Origin: an uncultured Acidobacteriota bacterium
GTDB lineage: Bacteria > Acidobacteriota > Thermoanaerobaculia > Multivoradales > SZUA-115
Assembly: GCA_963805975.1 (NCBI GenBank)
Contig: CAWDVR010000004.1
Span: 525,069-589,068, forward strand
Direction of reading: 5' to 3'
DNA: 64,000 bases
This document shows positions 224 through 61,627 of the stretch, in pieces (the first letter of the stretch is position 1; each line of letters begins with the position of its first letter). The position numbers were made by a program, and so were the translations under genes. The notes under the pieces were generated by a model. That model worked only from the letters and a program-made list of their open reading frames with translations, did no database searches and was not told where the DNA came from.

Positions 224-424
224 ATGAAGCTCAAGGTTGTCGTACATGAGGCAGAAGAGGGCGGTTATTGGGCCGAGGTGCCTGCGATTCCTGGCTGCGC
301 CACCCAGGGAGAGACTTTCGAGGAGCTGCTGCAGAACCTCTACGAGGCGGTCGAGGGTTGTATGGCAGTGGATCTGGAACCATCGGCTACCGATGGCGAG
401 CGGGTCATAGAGATCGCTGTGTGA
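224..424 (+). CDS. hicB: HicB-family antitoxin (UPF0150, RNase H-like fold)
   Basis: 66-aa ORF with the typical HicB N-terminal sequence (KLKVVVHEAEEGGYWAEVPAIPGCATQGETFEEL). Its stop overlaps the GTG start of the downstream HicA-like ORF. Confidence 0.7.
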   Translation: MKLKVVVHEAEEGGYWAEVPAIPGCATQGETFEELLQNLYEAVEGCMAVDLEPSATDGERVIEIAV

Positions 425-627
425 AGCAGCTTTCGGGTCGTGATCTCGCGCGCCTCGTCGAAAGACATGGTTGGGCACTGTTGCGGATCCACGGCAGCCA
501 TCACATCTACGGCAAGACCGGCAGCAAGGCTCGCCTCTCGATCCCGATCCACGGGAGCCACCCGCTCAAGACCGGCCTGCTCCGGTATCTGTTGAAGACA
601 GCCGGAATCAACGAGCAGGATCTGTAA
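421..627 (+). CDS. hicA: HicA-family mRNA interferase toxin (YcfA-like)
   Basis: 68-aa product carrying the HicA signature (LVERHGWALLRIHGSHHIYGKTGSKARLSIPIHGSHPLKTGLL). GTG start overlaps the hicB stop (GTGTGA). Confidence 0.7.
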   Translation: MKQLSGRDLARLVERHGWALLRIHGSHHIYGKTGSKARLSIPIHGSHPLKTGLLRYLLKTAGINEQDL

Positions 628-696: not shown

Positions 697-1038
697 TCAC
701 GGGTAGTTCGGGCACTGCATCACGCACTCCCGGTAGCGGTCGTGACAGGCGTCGATGCACTCGTCGTCGAAGGGCGGGCACTGGTGCTGGATACAGCACT
801 TGCGCTCGTTGAAGCAGCTCGCGCAGGGGTTGGGCGAGCAGAAGTAGGGTGGCGGGAGTGTTTTGGCCTCGGCAGCCGGCGCGAGTAGCGCGAGCAGCAC
901 CGGGTCGGCGGCTGGGATCGGCTGGGATTCCGCCAACGGGACTGGTTCTCCGGAAGAGGGCGCCGCCGGCGCGATGTCGGCAGACGCAGTGAGAACCACG
1001 AAAAGGGCGGGGACGAGGGCGAGCAAGGCTTTTTTCAT
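697..1038 (-). CDS. small secreted cysteine-rich protein (hypothetical)
   Basis: ATG with AAGGAAG Shine-Dalgarno about 10 nt upstream. N-terminal signal peptide (MKKALLALVPALFVVLTASA). The C-terminal 50 residues contain 12 Cys (CSPNPCASCFNERKCCIQHQCPPFDDECIDACHDRYRECVMQC). Divergent from the metal ABC transporter operon. Confidence 0.5.
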   Translation of the reverse strand: MKKALLALVPALFVVLTASADIAPAAPSSGEPVPLAESQPIPAADPVLLALLAPAAEAKTLPPPYFCSPNPCASCFNERKCCIQHQCPPFDDECIDACHDRYRECVMQCPNYP

Positions 1039-1203
1039 CAGGACACTTCCTTTGTCCAAGGGGGTGCCGGCGGAGGGCCTCGGGGAGACCGCCCTCGGCC
1101 GCGGTCTGCTCGAGGTGGTGAGCTGCTACGGAAGGGTCTTGCCCTGCTGTGCGTGAGAAGGGAGGGCTTGCGTCTTTTGCCAGGTCGAGAGTATGATTTT
1201 GGC

Positions 1204-2129
1204 ATGTCAAAAAGATGGGTTCTCCTCCCTGCCCTGCTGAGCTTCCTCGCCGCCTGCAGCGGCGATCCTGCTTCCAAGCCCTCCTCCTCCCGCCAGGGGC
1301 CGATCAAGGTCGTCGCCACCACTGGCATGATCGGCGACGCCGCGAAGCGCATCGCCGGGGACCTGGCCCAGGTGGAGGCGCTGATGGGCCCGGGGGTGGA
1401 TCCACACCTCTACAAGGCCAGCGAGAGCGACGTACGCAGGCTCTCGGAGGCCGATCTGATCCTCTACAACGGTCTCCACCTCGAAGGGAAGATGGGCGAC
1501 ATCCTGGTCAAGCTGGCGCGGACGCGCGCGGTGGTGGCGGTGTCCGAGACCATCCCGCAGGGGGAGCTTCGGGAGCCGCCCGAGTTCGCCGGCCAGTACG
1601 ACCCGCACATCTGGTTCGACGTCCGGCTCTGGTCGCGCACGCTCGACCCCATTGCCGAGGCCCTGGCCGGGCTCGACCCGGCGAACGCCGAGGCCTTCCG
1701 CTCCAACGCCGCACGCTACCGGGAAGAGCTCGGCGAGCTCGACACCTGGGTGGCAGGGCGTATCCTCGAGATCCCGGAAGGCCAGCGCGTGCTGGTCACC
1801 GCGCACGACGCCTTCGGCTACTTCGGCCGCCGCTACGGTATGAAGGTGATGGGCCTGCAAGGCATCAGCACGCTCTCCGAGGCGGGGCTCAGGGACGTGG
1901 AGCGCGTGGTCGACGAAGTGGTCGCCAGCGGAATCAAGGCGGTGTTCATCGAATCGTCCGTGCCGCGGCGCTCGATCGAAGCCGTCCAGGGGGCCTGCCG
2001 CGCCCGCGGGCGCGAGGTGGCGATCGGCGGCCAGCTCTTCTCGGACGCCATGGGCGCCCCCGGCACCGACGAGGGCACCTACCCCGGCATGGTGCGGGCC
2101 AACGTCAACACCATCGTGGAGGCCCTGAA

Positions 2130-2133
<4 letters not shown>
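1204..2133 (+). CDS. metal ABC transporter substrate-binding lipoprotein (TroA/ZnuA/MntC cluster-9 family)
   Basis: Lipobox ([10 protein letters not shown]). Family-typical motifs ([29 protein letters not shown]). First gene of a four-gene operon with overlapping stops and starts. Confidence 0.85.
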
Positions 2134-2996
<863 letters not shown>

Positions 2997-2997
2997 G

Positions 2998-4275
2998 GTG
3001 GAGCTGACCTTCTCGGCCCGAAACGTCCTGGTGGGCGCGAGCCTGCTGGGGATCGCCGGCGGCGTGCTGGGCGGCTTCGCGCTGCTGCGGCGGCAGAGCC
3101 TCCTGGGTGACGCGCTCGCCCACGCGGCGCTGCCGGGCGTGTGCGTGGCCTATCTCCTCACCCACAGCAAGAGCCCGGCACCGCTCCTGGCCGGTGCGCT
3201 GGTGGCGGGTCTCCTGGGCGCTCTCCTGATCCTCGCCGTGCGCCGCTTCTCGCGCATCAAGGAGGACGCGGCGATCGGCATCGTGCTGTCGGTCTTCTTC
3301 GGCGCCGGGATCGTGCTCCTCACCCACATCCAGAAGCTGCCGTTCGCCAACCAGAGCGGGCTCGACAAGTTCCTCTTCGGGCAGGCGGCGACTCTCATGC
3401 CGCGCGACATCGTGGTGATGGCCGTGCTGGTGACCCTGGTGCTCGGCACCACCTTCCTGTTCTTCAAGGAGCTCAAGCTGCTGGCCTTCGACCGCGAGTT
3501 CGGCGCCAGCCTGGGCTATCCCATGCGGAGCATCGAGATCCTGCTCACTCTGCTCCTGGTGGTGGTCGTCGTGGTGGGGTTGCAGACCGTGGGCGTGGTG
3601 CTGATGGTGGCGACGCTCGTCACCCCCGCGGCCGCCGCCCGCCAGTGGACGGACCGGCTGGGGCTGATGCTGCTCCTGTCGGCGGCGATCGGCGGCACCT
3701 CGGGCGCCGCCGGGGCGCTGCTCTCGGCGAGCGTCGAGCGCCTGCCGACCGGGCCGACGATCGTGCTGCTGTCGAGCGCGGCGCTGGTCGTCTCGCTGGT
3801 CTTGGCACCCCGTCGCGGGCTCCTGCAAGCGTTCCTGAAAGACCGGCGGGTGGCGACCCGCATCCGGCGCGAGAACCTGCTCAAGGATCTCTATGTCTGG
3901 ACCGAGCGGGGGAGCGGTCAGGGCGACCACTGGCTGCACTGGCCGGACCTCATGGGCACGCGCGGCCAGAGCGGCGGGCAGGTCTCCTCCGTGGCGAGGG
4001 CGCTGGCGAGGAATGGGCTCGCCGAGACCAGCGGACGCGGCGTGCGGTTGACGGCGGAGGGCCTGGCCGCGGCCCAGGCCGTGGTGCGGAGACACCGGCT
4101 GTGGGAGGTGTACCTGACGCGTCGCCTGGAGCTGCCGAGCGACCACGTGCACCGCGACGCCGAGGTAATGGAGCACGCGCTCACCGACGACGACGCGGCC
4201 GAGCTCGAAGAGCTGCTGGGCTCGCCCACCGTCGACCCCCACGGCAGCCCGATCCCGCCGCGGAGGGTGGCATGA
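2998..4275 (+). CDS. metal ABC transporter permease (ABC-3 family) fused to a C-terminal DtxR/MntR-like metalloregulator domain
   Basis: N-terminal ~280 aa form a TroC/ZnuB-like polytopic permease. C-terminal ~140 aa align along the full DtxR N-terminal region: wHTH (QVSSVARALARNGL...GVRLTAEGLAAAQAVVRRHRLWEVYL) plus metal-binding/dimerisation helix (DHVHRDAEVMEHALTDDDAAELEELLGSPTVDPHGSPIP). GTG start. Confidence 0.8.
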   Translation: MELTFSARNVLVGASLLGIAGGVLGGFALLRRQSLLGDALAHAALPGVCVAYLLTHSKSPAPLLAGALVAGLLGALLILAVRRFSRIKEDAAIGIVLSVFFGAGIVLLTHIQKLPFANQSGLDKFLFGQAATLMPRDIVVMAVLVTLVLGTTFLFFKELKLLAFDREFGASLGYPMRSIEILLTLLLVVVVVVGLQTVGVVLMVATLVTPAAAARQWTDRLGLMLLLSAAIGGTSGAAGALLSASVERLPTGPTIVLLSSAALVVSLVLAPRRGLLQAFLKDRRVATRIRRENLLKDLYVWTERGSGQGDHWLHWPDLMGTRGQSGGQVSSVARALARNGLAETSGRGVRLTAEGLAAAQAVVRRHRLWEVYLTRRLELPSDHVHRDAEVMEHALTDDDAAELEELLGSPTVDPHGSPIPPRRVA

Positions 4276-5381
4276 GCCCGACGCTGGTCATCCTCGTGGT
4301 GGGCGCCCTGGTCGCCGCCTCCTGCGCTCTGGTCGGCGCGTTCCTGGTGCTGCGCCAGATGGCCCTCCTGGGCGACGCCATCAGCCACGCCGTGCTGCCC
4401 GGCATCGTCCTCGCCTTTCTCCTGACCGGCGATCGGAGCACGCTTCCGATGGTGCTCGGGGCGGGAGCCTTCGGCGTGCTGACGGTGCTCCTGGTGGAGC
4501 TCTTCAACCGCACGCGCCGGCTGCGCGAGGACGCCTCGATCGGCGTCGTGTTCCCGGCCCTCTTCGCCTTCGGCGTGCTGCTGGTCAGCCGCTACGCGGC
4601 ACAGGTCGACCTCGACCTCGACTGCGTGCTCTACGGCGAGATCGCCTACGCGCCCTGGGACCTGCTCTATGCCGGCGGCCGCTCGCTCGGGCCCAAGGCC
4701 CTGTGGATCAACGGCACGGTGCTGGCCGTGAACGTGGCCATCGTGCTCCTCTTCTACAAGGAGCTCAAGCTCGCCACCTTCGACCGCGAGCTGGCCGCCG
4801 CGCTCGGCTTCCTGCCGGCCGCTCTCCACTACCTCCTGATGAGCATGGTGTCGATCACCGTGGTGGGCGCCTTCGAGAGCGTGGGGGCGATCCTGGTGGT
4901 GGCGATGCTGATCGTGCCGCCGGCCACCGCCTATCTCCTCACCGACCGGCTCTCGCGCATGCTGCTGCTCTCGGCGGCGCTCGGCGTGGCCTCGGCCGGC
5001 GGCGGCTACGCCATGGCGCGCTGGCTCGACGCCTCGATCGCCGGCTCCATGGCCACGGTGGCGGGCGCCATGTTCCTCCTCACCTTCCTGCTCTCGCCGC
5101 GCTACGGCCTCGTGGCGCGGGCCGTCCGCCACCGGCGGCTGACGTTCGCCACCGCCGACCAGCTCGTGATGCTCCACCTCTCCCACGGCAGCGAGGGCCT
5201 GCCGAAGGCCGAGGTCGTCCGCCGCTTCGCCTGGCCGGCGCGGCGCCTCGAAGCGACGGTCCGCCGCCTCGCTGCCCGCGGCTGGATCGAGGCCAACGGC
5301 TCGGGCTTGAAGCTCACCACCACCGGCGCCACGGCTCTCGAAGCCAGCGGCCAGGCGGTGCTGCGGCACCAAGGGACGTAG
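4272..5381 (+). CDS. metal ABC transporter permease (ABC-3 family) with C-terminal winged-helix (DtxR N-terminal-like) extension
   Basis: TroD/ZnuB-like permease with ATG overlapping the upstream stop. C-terminal ~90 aa (LVMLHLSHGSEGLPKAEVVRRFAWPARRLEATVRRLAARGWIEANGSGLKLTTTGATALEASGQAVLRH) resemble the DtxR-family wHTH but lack the metal-binding domain. The track ORF 3141-5381 is an artefactual extension. Confidence 0.75.
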   Translation: MSPTLVILVVGALVAASCALVGAFLVLRQMALLGDAISHAVLPGIVLAFLLTGDRSTLPMVLGAGAFGVLTVLLVELFNRTRRLREDASIGVVFPALFAFGVLLVSRYAAQVDLDLDCVLYGEIAYAPWDLLYAGGRSLGPKALWINGTVLAVNVAIVLLFYKELKLATFDRELAAALGFLPAALHYLLMSMVSITVVGAFESVGAILVVAMLIVPPATAYLLTDRLSRMLLLSAALGVASAGGGYAMARWLDASIAGSMATVAGAMFLLTFLLSPRYGLVARAVRHRRLTFATADQLVMLHLSHGSEGLPKAEVVRRFAWPARRLEATVRRLAARGWIEANGSGLKLTTTGATALEASGQAVLRHQGT

Positions 5382-5382
5382 G

Positions 5383-5565
5383 TCAGGCCGCTGTCTGCTT
5401 CTCGGGCTCGTATGGTGGTGAGACGAGAAATCGGTCGCGATACTGCTCCTGCATCTCCATGTAGTAGGCGACCAAGCGCTCTGGATCGTGATCGAACCGG
5501 GCCGAGATGCGGTGGCGCACCTCACGCACCTCGTCGATCACCGGATCAGCCTTACTCGGGATCAT
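5383..5565 (-). CDS. small hypothetical protein, putative antitoxin-like partner of the upstream PIN-like gene
   Basis: 60-aa ORF overlapping the 3' end of the PIN-like gene by 14 nt. Helical, charged sequence. Function inferred from context only. Confidence 0.4.
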   Translation of the reverse strand: MIPSKADPVIDEVREVRHRISARFDHDPERLVAYYMEMQEQYRDRFLVSPPYEPEKQTAA

Positions 5566-6109
5566 CGGCGCCTCCCAGTAGCTCGAGTGGTGTCACCATC
5601 GCGGGCACGAACAGGCCAAGCATGGTGTTCACACGGCGAATGTGCCCGAACTTGTTGGCGTTGGCAAGATGCTGGCAGTTCCAGGTAACCAGAAAGTCGC
5701 ATTTGTGGTACGAGGCGAGTGCCAGGTGGAGCACGTCTCCGCCAGGATTGGCGGGCATGATCTTGTGGCCGATATAGGCGGTAACGATCTCCGCGATCGC
5801 CGGCTCGATCGGGAGCAGAGGAAGGTCGGCCAGTAGACCGAGCCGGAGTGCACTGCGTTCTTGTGGGGCCGCCGCCAACTCGTCCAGCACGGCAGGGCTC
5901 GTAACGAGGTCATACCGATCGATGGCGCCGCTCCACCACTCGCGAGTCCATTCCCGGCGAACTACGATGTCGGGTGCAGTCCGAGCGTCATGGTAAAAGC
6001 TCGGAATCGTGGTCTCGACGTAGACCCGCGGCTTGCTCACGCGGCCAAGATAGCACCTGCCCCGCAGCTTTCTCCTGTGTTCAGCGGAGACGCAAACGGC
6101 CGAGGTCAC
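5552..6109 (-). CDS. PIN-like domain protein (putative toxin/RNase); start codon uncertain
   Basis: C-terminal motif (ASYHKCDFLVTWNCQHLAN) resembles the VapC/PIN C-terminal region. N-terminus (RVYVETTIPSFY) resembles a PIN-like beta1 strand. An alternative GTG start near 6040 is preceded by AGGTG. Confidence 0.5.
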   Translation of the reverse strand: MTSAVCVSAEHRRKLRGRCYLGRVSKPRVYVETTIPSFYHDARTAPDIVVRREWTREWWSGAIDRYDLVTSPAVLDELAAAPQERSALRLGLLADLPLLPIEPAIAEIVTAYIGHKIMPANPGGDVLHLALASYHKCDFLVTWNCQHLANANKFGHIRRVNTMLGLFVPAMVTPLELLGGADDPE

Positions 6110-6150: not shown

Positions 6151-9100
6151 TCACGGCACCGGCTTGGTGGGCACGGAGTCGTAGTGCTCCTGGGTACGCA
6201 CCGGGTCGGCCGGGCGGACCGGGAGCTTCTTGGGGTTGGCGGCGATGGCCTTCATCACCTCCGCGATGCCGCGCTCGAGCTGCGGGTCGCGGCCGGCGAT
6301 CACCGACTGCGGGTCGTTGGCCACCTCGATGTCCGGCGCCACGCCGTACCCTTCGATGATGTACTGGCCGGAGACCGAGGCCGAGGCGCTCTCCGGCACG
6401 AAGACCTGGCCGCCGTCGACCAGGGGCCCGCGGCCCGAGATGCCGACCACCCCGCCCCAGCTCCGCTTGCCGATCAGGGGACCCAGGCCCGCCTGGCGGA
6501 ACATGTAGGGAAAGATGTCGCCGTCCGAGGCCGAGGTCTCGGAGATCAGGCAGGCCATGGGGCCGTAGAAGGTGGCGACCGGGTAGGTGCCGGCCAGCTC
6601 GTCCGTGCGGCCGAAGTCGGTGCCCAGGAGGCGCCGCGACAGCCGCTCGATGAGCATCGGCGAGACGTTGCCGCCGCCGTTGCCCCGCACGTCGACCACC
6701 AGCCCTTCCTTGCGGATCTGACCGTAGTACCACTTGATGAACTCGCGGATGCCGTCCTCGCCCATATCGGGGATGTGGAGGTAGCCCACCCGGCCGTTGG
6801 TGGCCTTGTCGACGCGCTCGTAGTTCCTGGTCACCCAGTCGAGATAGATGAGCGGCGTCTCGCTCGAAATCGGCCGGAAGGTCACCTTGCGGGAGCCTTC
6901 GAGACTGGGCTTGGAGTGGACCGTCAGCTCCACCGGCCGGTCCGCCTTGTTGCGCAGCAGCCGGTAGGGGTCGTCATTGCCTTTGAGCTCGACGCCGTCG
7001 ATCTCCAGCACGTAGTCGCCTTCCTTCACCTCGACGCCGATCTCGGTGAGCGGCGAGCGGTAACGGTCCTCGCTGTTCTGGCCCGCGAAGATGTGGGCGA
7101 TCTTGTACCTGCCCGCGGCGCGGTCGAGCTCGAAGCGGGCGCCCGGCAGCGCCACGCGCGCCCGTTCCGGCAGGTCGAAGTCGCCGCCGGCGATGTAGGC
7201 GTGGGAGATGTTGAGCTCGGCGATCATCTCGCCGATCACGTAGTTCAGGTCGGAGCGGTGGGCGACGTGCTGGAGGAGCGAGCGGTAGCGCTCGCCGATC
7301 GCCTGCCAGTCGTAGCCGTGCAGGTTGGCGACGTAGAACCAGTCACGGAAGCGCCGCCAGACCTCGTCGAAGATCTGCCGCCACTCCTCCTCGGGCACGC
7401 GGTCCACCATCATCCCGGCGGTCGACACCGTCTTCTTGCTGTCGTCGCCGCCGGGCTTGGCCTCGTAGACGTTCCAGCGCTCACCCTGGTGCACGAGGAC
7501 CTTGGAGCCGTCGGCGGAGAGTGAGTAGCCCGAGGTGTCCTTGGCGAGCACGTGGAACTCGCGGTCCTCGAGCGAGTAGACGTGGAGCGAAGGCTGGTCG
7601 TAGCTGTCGCGGCCGTAGAAGAACGCGCCGCCCTTGACCAGCAGGAGGTGTCCCTCCTTGGCGGCGAGGGCGAAGTAGTTGTCGGCCTCGACCGGCACTC
7701 GGGCGACGCGCTGCTCGATCCCGTCCCAGTCGATCTTCACCGGCTTCCTGGCGGGCTTGGCGTCGCCTTCCTTCTCGTCGTCGCCCTTGCCCTTCTCGTC
7801 CTTCTTGTCCTTGTCTTTCGGGTCCTTCTCGTCGCCGGGTTTCTCGGCGTCCTTCTCTTCTTTCTTGTCGACGGTCACTTCGTCGCTCTCCGGCGGGAAG
7901 GGGTGCGGCGTTCCCTTGGCCAGGGCCACGACGTAGACCTCGGTCGCACGATTGGTGACGAAGTTCCATTCGATGAACGAGATCTGCGGAGCGTTGGCGG
8001 CGTCGGCCAGGTAGTAGAGATACTGGCCCTTGGGATCCCAGACCGGGTTGTACTCGCTGCCGAGAGCGCCCGTCACCTGGCGCTTCTTGCCGTCGGCCAG
8101 GCTCCAGATGTGCACCGAGCGGAAACCGGACGCTTCCGCCAGGCTGAACGCCAGGTAGGCGCTGTCCGGGGACCAGGTGTAGTCGCCCACCTGCCCGCGC
8201 AGGTCGTCGGCGACCTGCACCACTTTGCGGTCGGCGATGGTCAGCACGTAGACCTTGCCGTCCTTGTCGGCGAAGGCGAGGCGCTTGCCGTCCGGCGACC
8301 AGACCGGCTGGTAGCGCATCGCCTTGCCGCCGGTGGTTAGCTGTACCGGCTTGCCCTTGCCGCTCTGGTCGAGGAGATAGATCTCCTCTTCACCCGAGGC
8401 GTCGGAGATGTAGGCGAGCTGCGAGCCGTCCGGCGACCAGTTGGCGGCCTTCTCGTGCGATTTCGGTGACTGCGTCAGGTTGCGGGTCGGGCCCTTCTCG
8501 ATCGGCGCCGTGAACAGGTCGCCGCGCGAGGCGAAGGCGACGCGCTCGGCCTTGGGAGAGAGATCGAAGCTCTCGATGTCCTCGCCGGCCGGTACCCGGG
8601 ACGGCCGCTTGTAGACGCCGTCGTCCGGCACGAAGATCGAGATCGCCTTGGCCTGTCGCGCCTTGGTGTCGTAGACCGAGAGCTCGCCGCCCAGCTCGTA
8701 GACGATCTTGCCGGTAGCCTCGTCGGCGCTCGCCCAGCGCACGTCCCAGGAGGTGCTCTTGGTGAGCTGCTCGGCCTCGCCGGGCTTCAGGTCCTGCGCG
8801 TAGAGGTTGAGCGTGCCGTCGCGGTCGGAGACGAAGTAGAACTTGTCGCCGATCCACATCGGGTCGCGGTCGGTGCGTGGAGTGTTGGTGAGGTTGGTGG
8901 CCTGACTGCTCGCCAGGTCGTAGAGGTAGAGATCCTGCGCCCAACCGCCCTGGTACCGCTTCCAGGTGCGGAAGTCGCGCGCCAGCGGCGAGTAGACCAG
9001 TTTCTTGCCGTCCGCCGAGAAGGCGCCGGCACCCGAGGTGGGCATCGGCAGGGGCTCGGCCAGGCCACCGGTCGCGGGCACGGTGTAGAGGCGGCTGTCC

Positions 9101-9543
9101 GAGATGTCCCAGGTGTCCGAGAAAGCGCGGAACAGCACGCTCTTGCCGTCCGGCGTCCAGCCGTAGACCTGGTGATCGTAGCCCCAGCGCGGGGGCAGGG
9201 GGCCCACGGCGGGGTAGAACGTGAGCTGCTTGGGCACGCCGCCGGCGGTCGGCACCACGTACACCTGCTCGTCGCCGTCGTACTGGCCGGTGAAGGCGAT
9301 CCACTGGCCGTCGGGCGAGAACCTGGGGAAGATCTCGAGGCCGGGATGGGCGGTGAGACGCCGGGCCGCGCCGCCGCCGGCGGGAGCCAGCCAGAGGTCG
9401 CCCGCGTAGACGAAGGCCACGGTGTCGCCATGGATGTCGGGGAAGCGCAGCAACTTCGTCTGCGCGGCCGCCGGGGCGGTCAGGCCGAGGCTCAAGCCCA
9501 AGCCCAGGGCCGCGCTGATCGAGATCGATCGAAATCGGGACAT
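6151..9543 (-). CDS. tricorn protease homolog (peptidase S41B) with N-terminal signal peptide
   Basis: 1130 aa. Signal peptide, then TolB/WD40-like beta-propeller repeats, a PDZ-like region and a C-terminal S41 peptidase domain (motifs [21 protein letters not shown]). Contains a K/D/E-rich low-complexity insert. Confidence 0.85.
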
Positions 9544-59495: not shown

Positions 59496-60053
59496 GGTCG
59501 GGCTCCTCGAAGCGTCGCGCGGCGGCGCTGCGGACTAGAACGAGCGGTGGGAGTGCGCCGTGAAAAGGCGGCGGTTTTCAGTGGGTGCGAAACCCACCCG
59601 GCAACTGGTCGCTCCAGCCGGTAGCAATCGGAGCGGTGGTGGAGGCAACGAAGCCATCGAAGCCTTCGATGAAGAGGGTCGCCTTGGGCGATCCGGCGAC
59701 CCTGCAGGCCGAAACGTGAGTGAACGCCGAGCAAGCCTCGAAACGTTCGATGTGGGAGCCGACCCGTTTTCCATTCGGGGAAGGCCGTGGTTCCTGGACG
59801 GGATGAGCGACAGCATCCAGGGGTCCCACCGGGGTACTGGCGTCGGCATGCAGGGAAGAGGGAACCGAGCGCAACACGGGAAGCCCCAGCGGTGCCGGAG
59901 CGTGTCCGGCAACCGACAGCCCGCGAGGGTCGGGTTGGGCCGTCTGGGGTGGCGGGGAGGCCCGTAGTAGCGAGGAAGCCGGGTAATGCCGGTGGAGCGA
60001 AGGGGCCTCAGGGCAGGGTCAACGCAGGACGTAGCGAGAGCCGGAGATTGGCG

Positions 60054-61379
60054 GTGAGCCTACAACCTCCACCCAAGGTTCGGAAGCTACAGGCGGCGTT
60101 GCACGCCAAAGCGAAGGGAGCGCCCGGCTACCGCTTCTACGCGTTGTACGACAAGGTGCACCGCGAGGACATCCTGGAGCTCGCCTACCGGAGTTGCGCC
60201 GCCTCGGGCGGCGCGCCGGGGGTGGACGGGGTGACCTTCGAGGCCATCGAGACGTACGGGGTGGCGAGGTGGCTGGGGGAATTGGCGCAGGAACTCAGGA
60301 AGAAGGAGTACCGACCGCAGGCCGTACGGCGGGTCTTGATCCCCAAGCCGGACGGCAGGCAGAGGCCGTTGGGCATCCCGACCGTCCGGGACCGCGTGGT
60401 GCAGACGGCTGTAGTGTTGGTCTTGGAGCCGATCTTCGAGGCCGACCTCCAGCCCGAGCAGTACGCCTACCGGGAGGGACGGAGCGCGCTGGATGCGGTC
60501 CGCCGAGTCCACTCGCTGCTCAACACCGGACATCGAGAGGTGGTCAACGCGGATCTGAGCGGCTACTTCGACAGCATCCCGCACGCCGAGCTGATGACCT
60601 CGGTGGCCCGCCGCATCAGCGACCGGTGGATGCTCCACCTGATCAAGATGTGGCTCCAGGCGCCGGTGGAAGAGGCCGACGGGCGGGGGCGCAAGTGTCG
60701 GACGACCCGCAACCAGGACGAGGGCCGGGGCATTCCGCAAGGGGCTCCCATCTCGCCGCTTTTGTCCAACCTCTACATGCGCCGGTTCGTCCTCGGCTGG
60801 AAGGTGCTCGGCCACGAGGGCCGGCTCGACGCGCACATCGTCAACTATGCCGACGACTTCGTGATCTGCTGCCGCGGCAACGCCCAGGAGGCGATGGCTG
60901 CGATGCGGGGCATGACGGAGCGGCTGAAGCTGGCGATCAACGAGTCGAAGACCCGGCTCGCACGGCTCCCCGAGGAATCGGTGGACTTCCTGGGCTACAC
61001 CATCGGTCGCTGCTGGTCGCCGAAGACAGGCCGGGCCTACATCGGCACGCGCCCGTCGAAGGCGCGGGTCCAGCGGGTCTGCCGCGAGATCAGCGAATTG
61101 ACCAGCAGCCGGTGGCAGCTGCTCGACGTCCAGGACCGGGTAGCGCGTCTGAACCACCTGATGGTGGGGTGGGCGAACTACTTCCGCCTGGGCCCGGTCA
61201 GCAGGGCCTACAACACCGTGGACACCCACGCCTGTCGTAGGCTGCGCCAATGGCTGCGGCGCAAGCACAAAGTGCGGGGTCCGGGCTACGCACGCTTCTC
61301 GGACAAGTACCTGCACGAGGATCTCGGCCTCGAGCGCCTCACCGTGCGCACCCGCAGCTTCCCGTGGGCGACCGCGTGA
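60054..61379 (+). CDS. ltrA: group II intron reverse transcriptase/maturase (intron-encoded protein)
   Basis: RT0-RT7 motifs (PKPDGRQRPLGIPTVRDRVVQ, DLSGYFDSIPH, YADDFVICC with the YADD catalytic motif). Maturase X domain (GWANYFRLG). No HNH/En domain. GTG start with GGAG 8 nt upstream. Confidence 0.85.
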   Translation: MSLQPPPKVRKLQAALHAKAKGAPGYRFYALYDKVHREDILELAYRSCAASGGAPGVDGVTFEAIETYGVARWLGELAQELRKKEYRPQAVRRVLIPKPDGRQRPLGIPTVRDRVVQTAVVLVLEPIFEADLQPEQYAYREGRSALDAVRRVHSLLNTGHREVVNADLSGYFDSIPHAELMTSVARRISDRWMLHLIKMWLQAPVEEADGRGRKCRTTRNQDEGRGIPQGAPISPLLSNLYMRRFVLGWKVLGHEGRLDAHIVNYADDFVICCRGNAQEAMAAMRGMTERLKLAINESKTRLARLPEESVDFLGYTIGRCWSPKTGRAYIGTRPSKARVQRVCREISELTSSRWQLLDVQDRVARLNHLMVGWANYFRLGPVSRAYNTVDTHACRRLRQWLRRKHKVRGPGYARFSDKYLHEDLGLERLTVRTRSFPWATA

Positions 61380-61391
61380 TGTCCTGTCCGA

Positions 61392-61424
61392 GAGCCGGAT
61401 GCGGGAGATCCGCACGTCCGGTTC
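61392..61424 (+). ncRNA. group II intron domain V (catalytic hairpin)
   Basis: GAGCCGGAUGCGG-GAGA-UCCGCACGUCCGGUUC: AGC triad, 2-nt bulge and GNRA-like loop as in canonical domain V. Confidence 0.8.
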
Positions 61425-61627
61425 GACGAGCGGGGAAGAGGAGACGGAGCTATGGCGGAGACTGAGGCACCGGCACTACGGCGAAAGCCGCCGGCAACAG
61501 CTACTCCCTCGGCCTGGAGCTACCGCGCCTCTCCTCGACTCTACGGCCTGGGTTTCGTCGCCGCCGGGCTTGACGCTTGCGCATTGCGTTGATAGAGGTC
61601 CGTCAAATAGGCGGAGGTCTGACAGCC

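What the first reader, a model, noticed from the sequence alone, without database searches (positions are those of the whole stretch)
2998..5381. Both permeases of a metal ABC importer are fused to DtxR/MntR-type DNA-binding domains (full domain on one, wHTH only on the other)
Permease 1 (2998-4275) ends in about 140 aa that align along the whole DtxR N-terminal module. This includes the wHTH, the RKHRL-like helix, and the metal-site positions, where the DtxR H79/E83/H98/E105/H106 equivalents are conserved and the Cys102 position is acidic (RDAEVMEH), as in Mn-sensing MntR-type regulators. Permease 2 (4272-5381) ends in a related wHTH that stops exactly where the metal-binding region would begin. 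DtxR-family proteins act as dimers, and the two permeases form a membrane heterodimer. This arrangement would bring two wHTH domains together at the cytoplasmic face. That suggests a membrane-tethered, transporter-coupled metalloregulator, for example autoregulation of this operon by Mn2+/Fe2+ occupancy or by transport state, instead of a separate troR/mntR gene. No stand-alone DtxR-family gene is present in the operon. I do not know how widespread this fusion is, so the novelty is uncertain.
Basis: partly seen in the sequence, partly recalled or inferred. Interest (0 to 1): 0.7.

Follow-up and report, generated by a model that had tools for sequence, protein, structure and literature searches.

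The report
Metal importer permeases with DtxR domains
Both membrane subunits of a manganese/iron-type ABC importer carry domains derived from the DtxR metal-sensing repressor, a fusion type already known from Chlamydia (YtgC-YtgR) and widespread, but here the domains look more like built-in metal sensors of the transporter than like the repressor of the operon.

Summary
Permease 1 (2998-4275) is an ABC-3 permease followed by a complete two-domain DtxR module (winged helix plus metal-binding/dimerisation domain, no SH3 domain). All six core metal ligands are present. Permease 2 (4272-5381) ends in a homologous winged helix only.

The fusion is not new. It is the architecture of Chlamydia YtgC-YtgR, reported in 11 phyla, and at least 99 of the best 150 50%-identity cluster representatives carry it.

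The idea that the fusion replaces a separate regulator is not supported for the family. In 13 of 20 loci with the same architecture, a canonical DtxR/DR2539-like gene lies within 6 kb of the operon, in 12 of them divergently just upstream. A conserved palindrome (TTTTGnCATGnCAAAA) sits on the start codon of the first gene, and it is also present in the window (1197-1212).

The free regulator's recognition helix is nearly invariant. The DNA-reading surface of the fused domains varies freely, while their metal ligands are about 97% conserved.

My best reading (confidence about 0.4, inferred) is a transporter-attached cytoplasmic metal sensor giving post-translational feedback. A YtgR-like released repressor remains a serious rival.

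The truncated domain on permease 2, and winged-helix-only extensions on both permeases in other phyla, appear undescribed.

The parts
1168..1197 (+). Promoter-like element: TTGCGT (1168-1173), 18-nt spacer, TATGAT (1192-1197). The ATG at 1204 is the 7th nt after the -10 hexamer, so the mRNA is probably leaderless.
   Evidence: The sequence was read. The same layout, with a consensus TTGACA -35 hexamer, is conserved in 15 related loci when aligned on the start codon. The generic promoter scan did not flag it, because only 3 of 6 positions of the -35 hexamer match. This is an inference, not a mapped transcription start.
1197..1212 (.). 16-bp palindrome TTTTGGCATGTCAAAA centred on the start codon of the first gene. 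It is the candidate operator of a dimeric DtxR-family regulator.
   Evidence: It is the only match in 64 kb with up to 2 mismatches; 0.01 are expected. It sits at the same position in 15 related loci, and L015 has a perfect 20-bp palindrome. Of 34 matches with up to 2 mismatches in 938 kb of loci, 25 lie at operon starts. A related TTTAGGCATGCCTAAA type occurs in loci whose permeases lack the metal domain.
1204..2133 (+). Substrate-binding lipoprotein of the ZnuA/cluster A-I family.
   Evidence: Pfam ZnuA at E 1e-79. NCBIfam AztC, MntC and EfaA models match below their cut-offs.
2130..2996 (+). ABC ATPase subunit.
   Evidence: Pfam ABC_tran at E 4.5e-29. The best NCBIfam model is the Mn transporter ATPase MntA (Deinococcus type), at E 2e-74 and below its cut-off.
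2998..3819 (+). Permease 1, membrane domain (residues 1-274; ABC-3 family, PsaC-like, 9 predicted helices).
   Evidence: Pfam ABC-3 at E 7e-68. PDB PsaC 7kyp/7kyo at E 5e-36 by sequence and Foldseek E 4e-14. Secondary structure comes from the model.
3820..4050 (+). Permease 1, DtxR-type winged helix (residues 275-351): long helix 275-305 including N293 (M10 equivalent), helix 315-322, 'recognition' helix 326-338, hairpin 342-351.
   Evidence: hhalign to free DtxR starts at DtxR residue 5. Model secondary structure is, and the superposition on DR2539/IdeR. This is the least conserved region of the protein (major-residue frequency 0.58 against 0.81-0.83 elsewhere).
4051..4275 (+). Permease 1, DtxR metal-binding/dimerisation domain (residues 352-425) with H366, E370, H385, E389, E392 and H393. 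There is no SH3/FeoA domain.
   Evidence: Pfam Fe_dep_repr_C at E 1.9e-25. The ligands are conserved in 131-133 of 135 diverse fused domains; H98 is H in 111 and D in 21, and C102 is E in 104 and D in 28. Invariant columns are listed.
4272..5096 (+). Permease 2, membrane domain (residues 1-275; ABC-3 family). Its start overlaps the P1 stop (ATGA).
   Evidence: Pfam ABC-3 at E 6e-52. The overlap was read.
5097..5381 (+). Permease 2, winged-helix-only extension (residues 276-369). It is homologous to the P1 winged helix and ends at the DtxR RKHRL-equivalent position. Invariant or near-invariant residues are H302-L303, R318-F319-W321 and H366 (positions derived by offset from the A1 alignment).
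   Evidence: hhalign gives 98.3% to the P1 module and about 90% to free DtxR. The AlphaFold model has pLDDT 83.2. Foldseek neighbours are winged-helix proteins.

Best explanation
The locus is a four-gene Mn2+/Fe2+-type ABC importer of the ABC-3 (PsaBCA/MntABCD/YtgABCD) kind: binding protein, ATPase, permease 1 and permease 2.

Shown here. Permease 1 carries a complete, metal-competent DtxR two-domain module on its cytoplasmic C-terminus. Permease 2 carries a homologous winged helix without the metal/dimerisation domain.

Also shown. The promoter has a conserved palindrome on the start codon of a probably leaderless mRNA. In most relatives a canonical free DtxR/DR2539-like repressor with an invariant recognition helix is encoded next to it.

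Inferred. Transcription of the operon is controlled by such a free repressor, which in this genome would be encoded outside the window. The permease-borne modules are not the readers of that operator. They act in place as cytoplasmic metal sensors of the transporter. When Mn2+/Fe2+ fills the H366/E370/H385 and N293/E389/E392/H393 sites, the module changes conformation, as DtxR proteins do on activation. Through the short conserved APRRG connector and the long helix that follows the last membrane helix, this would restrain the permease pair and slow import. That would be feedback ('trans') inhibition, with the winged helices re-used as protein-docking elements.
For: 1. Metal sensing is the property under selection. 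In 135 diverse fused domains the ligand positions are 131-133/135 conserved, with H98 as H/D and C102 as E/D. The metal domain is as conserved as the membrane domain in the close clade (0.81 against 0.83).

2. The DNA-reading face is not under selection. In the close clade the helix2-helix3-wing region is the least conserved part of P1 and P2 (0.58). Surface positions 37-40, 42-44 and 47 have no consensus. The wing Tyr (Y in 31/33 free regulators) becomes G/D/N/E in the fused domains. In the closest solved relative, DR2539, the contacts with DNA are made by residues Ala37, Pro38 and Ala39 and by Tyr59 (paper 10.1101/2024.02.12.579695).

3. Across 16 loci that share the same operator, the free regulator keeps ALKVAPGTVTAMVKTLADSG…PYSGVRLT. 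The P1 helix reads SGGQVSSVARAL, TGGELTRSARPL, GRRRLSALARSL and so on.

4. The operator type persists in loci whose permeases have no metal domain at all. Free DtxR genes accompany the operon in 13/20, 7/9 and 15/29 loci of the three architectures.

5. A winged-helix extension of about 91-98 aa is kept on both permeases across many phyla even without the DtxR metal domain. There it carries its own conserved His/Glu/Asp clusters. This points to a transporter-linked, metal-related role of the extension itself.

6. There is only one dimerisation domain per P1-P2 pair, and only a 5-residue conserved connector between the last membrane helix and a 31-residue helix.

7. Single-chain membrane-DtxR-membrane proteins exist (P0242).
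Against: There is no experimental evidence for feedback inhibition in any ABC-3 importer, and none for a regulatory domain on the membrane subunit. The known cases, MetNI and ModBC, carry it on the ATPase (my knowledge).

The only characterised member of this architecture, chlamydial YtgC-YtgR, is cleaved, and its C-terminal domain binds the ytg promoter and represses it in a metal-dependent way.

The helix-turn-helix region of the fused domains keeps a net positive charge (+2.5 against +1.4 in free regulators), so DNA binding is not excluded.

No free DtxR gene is present in this 64 kb window or within 6 kb in 7 of 20 loci.

A variable recognition helix could also mean lineage-specific targets elsewhere in the genome.

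The geometry of the module relative to the ATPases was not modelled.
Confidence: 0.4

Rival explanations
1. YtgR-like autorepressor. The C-terminal module of P1 is released by proteolysis (or acts while tethered), dimerises, binds Mn2+/Fe2+ and represses the operon at the 1197-1212 palindrome. This is what happens in Chlamydia trachomatis YtgC-YtgR. The P2 winged helix would be an accessory or a relic.
For: The architecture and gene order match YtgABCD, where cleavage and metal-dependent promoter binding were shown experimentally (PMC5599777, PMC6504234, PMC7755916). The two-domain DtxR fold is complete, with ligands and a well-conserved dimerisation domain. A palindromic operator is present and no free DtxR gene lies in the window. 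The helix-turn-helix region has a net positive charge.
Against: The operator is conserved across loci in which the P1 recognition helix varies freely, while a free regulator with an invariant helix is encoded next door in 12 of 20 loci. The residues that DR2539 uses to contact DNA are not kept. The operator type also occurs where the permeases lack the metal domain. The five loci without an adjacent free regulator show no convergence of the P1 helix towards the VAPGTVT type.
Confidence: 0.27
2. Partner or anti-repressor of the free regulator. The P1 dimerisation domain forms a heterodimer with the soluble DtxR-like repressor at the membrane, sequestering or releasing it according to metal load or transport state. 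This would resemble MalK-MalT or PtsG-Mlc.
For: The free regulator co-occurs with fused P1 in most loci. The two dimerisation/metal domains are similar (hhalign 99.9%, shared RHRLxE…HxxAExxEH…DPHGxPIP motifs). There is a single, highly conserved dimerisation domain per transporter with no obvious partner.
Against: There is no direct evidence for it. 7 of 20 loci lack a nearby free regulator. It does not explain winged-helix-only extensions on both permeases, which have no dimerisation domain.
Confidence: 0.12
3. Metal acceptor or buffer at the exit of the translocation pathway. The module binds the imported ion and hands it on, or protects the cell locally, without signalling to DNA or to the transporter.
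For: The metal ligands are conserved and the module sits at the cytoplasmic face. His/Glu clusters occur in the winged-helix-only versions.
Against: The DtxR fold is a conformational switch, and the strong conservation of the whole second domain, including non-ligand surfaces, exceeds what a simple binding site needs. There is no precedent.
Confidence: 0.08
4. Non-functional relic of an old gene fusion.
For: The winged-helix surface is variable, and P2 has lost the second domain.
Against: The extensions keep their length and their core and ligand residues across at least 99 clusters at 50% identity and many phyla. The open reading frames are intact, with overlapping start and stop codons that suggest translational coupling.
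Confidence: 0.03

Closest known systems
Chlamydia trachomatis YtgC-YtgR (CT069/CTL0325) of the ytgABCD operon
   Same: An N-terminal ABC-3 permease is fused to a C-terminal DtxR-like domain of about 139 aa with conserved metal ligands and no SH3 domain. It is the third gene of an operon ordered binding protein, ATPase, permease, permease. The fusion was reported in 11 phyla.
   Different: In Chlamydia the domain is cleaved off and is the only known iron-dependent repressor of the cell. Here most relatives also encode a canonical free DtxR next to the operon, the fused recognition helix is not conserved, and the partner permease carries a second, truncated winged helix, which I found described nowhere. 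I could not compare the sequences directly, because YtgC is in no accessible collection.
Free DtxR-family Mn/Fe sensors: Deinococcus radiodurans DR2539 (8pvt/8pw0), IdeR, DtxR, SloR, TroR
   Same: The two-domain fold is the same: 1.5-1.8 A over about 131 residues and 34-39% identity. The ancillary and primary ligand sets are the same, with E at the Cys102 position as in the Mn sensor.
   Different: The fused module is tethered to a membrane protein and has no SH3/FeoA third domain. M10/D11 is replaced by Asn. The Ala-Pro-Ala start of helix 3 and the wing Tyr59 used by DR2539 on DNA are not kept.
PsaBCA (Streptococcus pneumoniae) and other ABC-3 Mn/Zn importers
   Same: The membrane domain fold and family are the same (7kyp), as are the cluster A-I binding protein and the ATPase.
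   Different: PsaC (282 aa) has no C-terminal domain. The median ABC-3 protein is about 251 aa (PMC8346216). Here the two permeases are 425 and 369 aa.
Trans-inhibited ABC importers MetNI and ModBC (my knowledge, not tested here)
   Same: A cytoplasmic domain binds the transported substrate and locks the transporter when the cell is replete. This is the logic I propose.
   Different: In those systems the regulatory domains sit on the ATPase subunits and form a symmetric dimer. Here they sit on the membrane subunits, are asymmetric (full plus truncated), and derive from a transcription factor.
Bacillus subtilis MntC (YtgC), recalled as 435 aa beside a 295-aa MntD and a free MntR
   Same: If my recollection of its length and domain content is right, it would be a second case of a fused permease coexisting with a free regulator.
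   Different: This is unverified. The only paper found that lists MntC/MntD (PMC11466899) does not describe the domain.

Membership tests
ABC-3 / Mn-Zn-Fe chelate uptake ABC importers (TC 3.A.1.15) | Membrane subunits match the ABC-3 family model | tested here: met
   PF00950 at E 7e-68 for P1 and 6e-52 for P2. PsaC is the best solved match.
ABC-3 / Mn-Zn-Fe chelate uptake ABC importers (TC 3.A.1.15) | Cluster A-I (ZnuA-type) binding protein and ABC ATPase in the same operon | tested here: met
   PF01297 at E 1e-79 and PF00005 at E 4.5e-29. The genes are contiguous or overlapping from 1204 to 5381.
ABC-3 / Mn-Zn-Fe chelate uptake ABC importers (TC 3.A.1.15) | Metal specificity (Mn2+, Zn2+ or Fe2+) | tested here: inconclusive
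   The NCBIfam Mn models (MntA/MntC of Deinococcus, EfaA) and the Zn model (AztABC) all match below their cut-offs. The E/D at the Cys102 position and the DR2539-like regulator suggest Mn/Fe.
DtxR/MntR family metalloregulators | N-terminal winged helix-turn-helix of DtxR type | tested here: met
   P1: hhalign covers DtxR residues 5-137 at 99.9%, and the model superposes on DR2539/IdeR. P2: 98.3% to the P1 winged helix and about 90% to DtxR, with an AlphaFold winged helix. Pfam PF01325 itself does not reach significance on either protein.
DtxR/MntR family metalloregulators | Metal-binding/dimerisation domain (PF02742) with ligands H79, E83, H98, C/E102, E105 and H106 | tested here: met
   Met for P1: E 1.9e-25, with all six ligands present and conserved in the family. 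Not met for P2, which ends before this domain.
DtxR/MntR family metalloregulators | Conserved DNA-reading residues on helix 3 and the wing | tested here: not met
   The surface positions are variable in the fused domains but nearly invariant in co-located free regulators. The wing Tyr is absent.
DtxR/MntR family metalloregulators | Metal-dependent dimer binding to a palindromic operator | not testable with these tools
   A palindrome exists at 1197-1212, but which protein binds it needs a gel-shift or ChIP experiment.
YtgC-YtgR type permease-repressor fusion | One polypeptide with an N-terminal ABC-3 permease and a C-terminal DtxR-like domain, encoded in the importer operon | tested here: met
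   The architecture is as described in PMC5599777 and PMC6504234.
YtgC-YtgR type permease-repressor fusion | Proteolytic release of the repressor domain | not testable with these tools
   Only a 5-residue connector and a continuous helix follow the last membrane helix in the model. No cleavage motif is known for YtgC.
YtgC-YtgR type permease-repressor fusion | The fused domain is the regulator of the operon (no separate DtxR regulator) | tested here: inconclusive
   No free DtxR gene lies in the window, but 13 of 20 loci with the same architecture have one within 6 kb. The rest of the source genome could not be searched.
YtgC-YtgR type permease-repressor fusion | Sequence orthology to YtgC | not tested
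Trans-inhibited ABC importers (MetNI/ModBC type) | Cytoplasmic substrate-binding regulatory domain on the transporter | tested here: inconclusive
   A metal-binding module is present and conserved, but it sits on the membrane subunit rather than the ATPase. No effect on transport has been shown.

The most novel reading that the evidence does not exclude
The DtxR-derived modules on the two permeases are no longer transcription factors. They form an asymmetric cytoplasmic metal-sensing gate that shuts the importer when Mn2+/Fe2+ is replete. The winged helix would have been re-used for protein docking. The winged-helix-only extensions with His/Glu clusters, found on both permeases in many other phyla, would be a second version of the same device. 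This would be the first feedback-inhibition mechanism for ionic-metal ABC importers, and the first one built on the membrane subunits.
Probability: 0.35. Interest if true: 0.72.

Novelty: new variant of a known kind. Interest (0 to 1): 0.45.

Why it matters
The basic fusion is already known from YtgC-YtgR, so the finding is not a new class. Three points would interest people who work on metal homeostasis.

1. The fusion commonly coexists with a canonical free DtxR repressor and its operator. The chlamydial model, in which the fusion is the regulator, therefore may not generalise.

2. Selection keeps the metal sites but not the DNA-reading face. That makes a post-translational, transporter-level role directly testable.

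3. The partner permease, and both permeases in many phyla, carry a truncated winged-helix domain that appears undescribed.

How Mn/Fe ABC importers are switched off quickly when the metal becomes toxic is an open question. This family offers a concrete candidate mechanism.

Tried and rejected
- Searching the 5.8-billion-protein collection with the P2 extension alone (102 aa) found nothing, because the word index gave only 23 candidates. I obtained the homologues from full-length P2 and from translated loci instead.
- Exact look-ups of the window's own P1, its binding protein, and P0121 (100% identical to P2) found no record. The source genome therefore could not be identified or searched for a free DtxR gene. 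The closest relatives are Thermoanaerobaculia (Acidobacteriota) genomes assembled from metagenomes.
- Cluster names for ten distant representatives gave only generic 'metal ABC transporter permease' labels.
- Thompson et al. 2012 (PNAS; PMC3387080) is not held. Its content is cited through the review PMC5599777.
- The AlphaFold-database Foldseek library was unavailable, so I could not look for annotated proteins with the same two-domain architecture, such as B. subtilis MntC or chlamydial YtgC.
- The generic inverted-repeat tool (maximum arm distance 12) reported only a GC-rich 9-nt palindrome at 1093-1104 and missed the operator. The operator emerged from aligning the promoters of related loci.
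- The generic promoter scan did not flag the operon promoter.
- I considered a Mn riboswitch, but Rfam finds none in the window, and the mRNA is probably leaderless.
- I considered that the His at the M10-equivalent position depends on whether P2 has an extension. I rejected this as confounded by phylogeny.
- The relative geometry of the module, the partner permease and the ATPases could not be examined. Only monomer predictions were possible, and no coordinates are returned.


Full report
**What is there**

The first 5.4 kb of the window encode, on the + strand, a compact operon.
- 1204-2133: a ZnuA-family binding lipoprotein.
- 2130-2996: an ABC ATPase.
- 2998-4275: permease 1, 425 aa, with a GTG start one base after the ATPase stop.
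- 4272-5381: permease 2, 369 aa, with an ATGA overlap with the P1 stop.

Both permeases belong to the ABC-3 family. Their closest solved relative is the pneumococcal Mn permease PsaC. PsaC has nine membrane helices and tolerated a C-terminal GFP fusion (PMC8346216). Together with the very basic sequence after the last helix, this places both C-terminal extensions in the cytoplasm.

**Check of the observation**

P1 residues 352-420 match Pfam Fe_dep_repr_C at E 1.9e-25. The last 157 residues match solved DtxR-family proteins. The best is the Deinococcus Mn sensor DR2539 at E 7e-20, followed by IdeR, DtxR, SloR and ScaR.

A profile of 40 fused domains aligns with a profile of 33 free DtxR proteins at probability 99.9% over DtxR residues 5-137. 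That range is the whole winged-helix plus dimerisation/metal module. The AlphaFold model of full-length P1 (pLDDT 78.7) has the expected helix-helix-helix-hairpin-helix-helix-helix order after residue 275. Its C-terminal module superposes on the DR2539-DNA complex at 1.5 A over 132 columns (39% identity).

The ligand equivalents are all present: H366, E370, H385, E389 (the Cys102 position), E392 and H393. N293 sits at the Met10 position. There is no SH3/FeoA domain.

The P2 extension gives only weak hits by itself. Its family profile matches the first 92 residues of the P1 module at probability 98.3% (E 2e-14) and matches free DtxR residues 14-70 at about 90%. AlphaFold gives a confident winged helix (pLDDT 83). 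P2 ends at …AVLRHQGT, the position of the DtxR RKHRL motif.

**How common, and is it known?**

The fusion is neither rare nor new.
- All 120 best hits in the 5.8-billion-protein collection have both domains.
- Among the best 150 representatives of 50%-identity clusters, 99 carry the full module with the metal region and 24 more carry part of it.
- In reference genomes the full module occurs in Acidobacteriota (Thermoanaerobaculia, Holophagales), Planctomycetota, Myxococcota, Chloroflexota, Zixibacteria and Ignavibacteriales.

The architecture is that of Chlamydia trachomatis YtgC-YtgR. There the third gene of ytgABCD encodes a permease fused to a DtxR-like domain. That domain is cleaved off and represses the ytg and trpBA promoters in an iron-dependent way. 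The original study is reported to have found such fusions in 11 phyla (PMC5599777, PMC6504234, PMC7755916).

I found no description of a winged-helix domain on the partner permease.

**Context in relatives changes the interpretation**

I translated 83 related loci and classified them. There are three main architectures:
- full module on P1 plus winged helix on P2, as in the window;
- full module on P1 and no extension on P2;
- in many other phyla (Poribacteria, Rhodothermales, Thermodesulfobacteriota, Chloroflexota and others), a winged-helix-only extension of about 91-98 aa on both permeases. These extensions are homologous to the window's (hhalign 96-99.5%).

One genome (Ca. Uabimicrobium, L022) has the full module on both permeases.

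A canonical free DtxR gene (Fe_dep_repress + Fe_dep_repr_C + FeoA, about 220 aa) lies within 6 kb in these proportions:

| Architecture | Loci with a free DtxR gene within 6 kb |
|---|---|
| Full on P1 + winged helix on P2 (as in the window) | 13 of 20 (12 divergent, immediately upstream) |
| Full on P1 + no extension on P2 | 7 of 9 |
| Winged helix on both | 15 of 29 |

So for the family, the fusion does not stand in for a separate regulator.

**The operator**

I aligned the promoters of the 16 closest loci on the start codon of the first gene. They share a -35 hexamer (TTGACA; TTGCGT in the window) and a -10 hexamer that ends six bases before the ATG. That spacing suggests a leaderless mRNA.

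They also share a palindrome, TTTTGnCATGnCAAAA, centred on the start codon. In the window it lies at 1197-1212. It is the only match in 64 kb, where 0.01 are expected.

It is present whether or not a free regulator is adjacent. A closely related palindrome (TTTAGGCATGCCTAAA type) sits at operon starts in loci whose permeases have no DtxR metal domain at all, often just upstream of the free regulator gene that opens the operon.

**Who reads the operator?**

In the 11 loci of this set that have a free regulator, its helix 2, helix 3 and wing are almost invariant (ALKVAPGTVTAMVKTLADSGLV-YEPYSGVRLT). In the same loci the equivalent stretch of P1 has no surface consensus: SGGQVSSVARALARNG, TGGELTRSARPLVADG, GRRRLSALARSLAASG, APGRLEAAARALETED.

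Among 120 close P1 homologues (68-98% identical), conservation by region is as follows:

| Region of P1 | Major-residue frequency |
|---|---|
| Membrane domain | 0.83 |
| First helix of the module | 0.79 |
| Helix 2, helix 3 and wing | 0.58 |
| Metal/dimerisation domain | 0.81 |

P2 behaves the same way (0.83 against 0.58).

Across 135 diverse fused domains the ligands are 131-133/135 conserved. Positions 37-40 and 42-44 are not conserved. The wing Tyr (Y in 31/33 free regulators) is replaced by G/D/N/E. In DR2539 the DNA contacts are made by Ala37, Pro38 and Ala39 and by the wing Tyr59.

Selection therefore keeps the fold and the metal sites of the fused module, but not its DNA-reading face. 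The most conserved surface features of the two winged helices lie elsewhere: RIRRENLLKDLY and LMGxRGQ in P1, LHL and RRFxW in P2.

**Most likely mechanism**

Shown: the importer, the domain architecture, the conserved metal ligands, the conserved operator, the free regulators in relatives, and the relaxed DNA-reading surface.

Inferred: the operon is repressed through the 1197-1212 palindrome by a free DR2539/MntR-like protein encoded elsewhere in this genome. The permease-borne modules act in place as cytoplasmic metal sensors that feed back on transport. They are coupled to the membrane domain through the conserved APRRG connector and the long helix 275-305.

Further points in favour:
- there is only one dimerisation domain per P1-P2 pair;
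- a winged helix persists on both permeases in lineages that lack the DtxR metal domain, and there it has its own conserved His/Glu/Asp clusters (IHLLNHEG…E…HL-EHLRW and QHxDxxHxH);
- single-chain membrane-DtxR-membrane proteins exist.

I give this 0.40.

**Rivals**

- **A YtgR-like released or tethered autorepressor (0.27).** It has the only experimental precedent, and it fits the absence of a free DtxR gene in the window. It does not fit a variable helix read against a conserved operator.
- **Heterodimerisation with, or sequestration of, the free regulator (0.12).** It would explain the lone, highly conserved dimerisation domain, but not the winged-helix-only forms.
- **A metal acceptor or buffer role (0.08).**
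- **A relic (0.03).** This is contradicted by the conservation.

**Comparison and novelty**

P1 is a new member of the known YtgC-YtgR type of fusion. Three features make the locus a new variant of a known kind rather than a new class:
- an asymmetric pair, with a full module on one permease and a truncated one on the other;
- frequent coexistence with a canonical regulator and its operator;
- evidence that the DNA-reading surface is not constrained.

Membership in the DtxR family is met for fold and metal sites, and not met for the conserved DNA-contact residues. The functional features that define YtgR, cleavage and promoter binding, cannot be tested with these tools.

**Limits**

- The source genome could not be searched beyond the window.
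- Only monomer models without coordinates were available.
- The transcription start is inferred from spacing.
- Counts of adjacent regulators depend on 6-kb flanks.

Noticed in passing
window 1168-1212: The promoter layout implies a leaderless mRNA: the -10 hexamer TATGAT ends 6 nt before the ATG at 1204. A 16-bp palindrome, TTTTGGCATGTCAAAA, is centred on the start codon. The second codon is the rare TCA in a genome of about 69% G+C, which suggests a constraint at the DNA level. The layout is conserved in 15 related loci.
   Followed up: yes
L039-L083 (e.g. L050 5866-8000, L053 5932-8210): In Poribacteria, Rhodothermales, Thermodesulfobacteriota, Chloroflexota and others, both ABC-3 permeases carry winged-helix-only C-terminal extensions of about 91-98 aa. 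They are homologous to the window's and carry conserved His/Glu/Asp clusters (IHLLNHEG…E…HL-EHLRW; QHxDxxHxH). These may form an alternative metal site. I found no description of them.
   Followed up: partly
L022 5911-8579 (Candidatus Uabimicrobium sp. HlEnr_7 chromosome): Both permeases carry the full DtxR-like module including the metal/dimerisation domain. No free DtxR gene lies within the locus. This could be the ancestral symmetric state, or a true intramolecular DtxR dimer.
   Followed up: no
proteins P0242 (824 aa), P0243 (806 aa), P0254 (760 aa): These are single-chain proteins ordered permease-DtxR module-permease, or permease-permease-DtxR module. In P0242 the module is followed by an Ala/Pro-rich linker of about 100 aa. 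I did not check whether they are real fusions or gene-calling or assembly artefacts.
   Followed up: partly
related loci, P1 residue equivalent to DtxR Met10: The residue is Asn in 26 of 27 loci where P2 has a winged-helix extension, but His in 6 of 10 loci where P2 has none (Ignavibacteriales/Zixibacteria). This is probably phylogenetic, but it could reflect a ligand exchange.
   Followed up: partly
window 4272-5381, P2 residues 297, 302 and 366: P2 keeps a near-invariant Gln at the Met10-equivalent position (EQLLLLHL), an invariant His in LHL, and a roughly 90% conserved His three residues from its C-terminus (LRH), one position off the DtxR His79 equivalent. These could be ligands supplied in trans to the P1 module.
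   Followed up: no
window 697-1038 (-): A divergent 113-aa open reading frame with a signal peptide and a Cys-rich C-terminal half (…CSPNPCASCFNERKCCIQHQCPPFDDECIDACHDRYRECVMQCPNYP) has no Pfam match. It occupies the position where relatives have the free dtxR gene.
   Followed up: partly
window 59579-61544 (+): A group II intron: Rfam group-II-D1D4-4 at 103.6 bits (59579-59719) and Intron_gpII at 41.2 bits (61390-61544).
   Followed up: no
window 224-627 (+) and 5383-6109 (-): Two probable toxin-antitoxin pairs flank the operon. One is HicB-like/HicA (224-424, 424-627). The other is a PIN-domain protein (5552-6109) with a small upstream reading frame (5383-5565). A tricorn-type protease follows at 6151-9543 (-).
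   Followed up: partly
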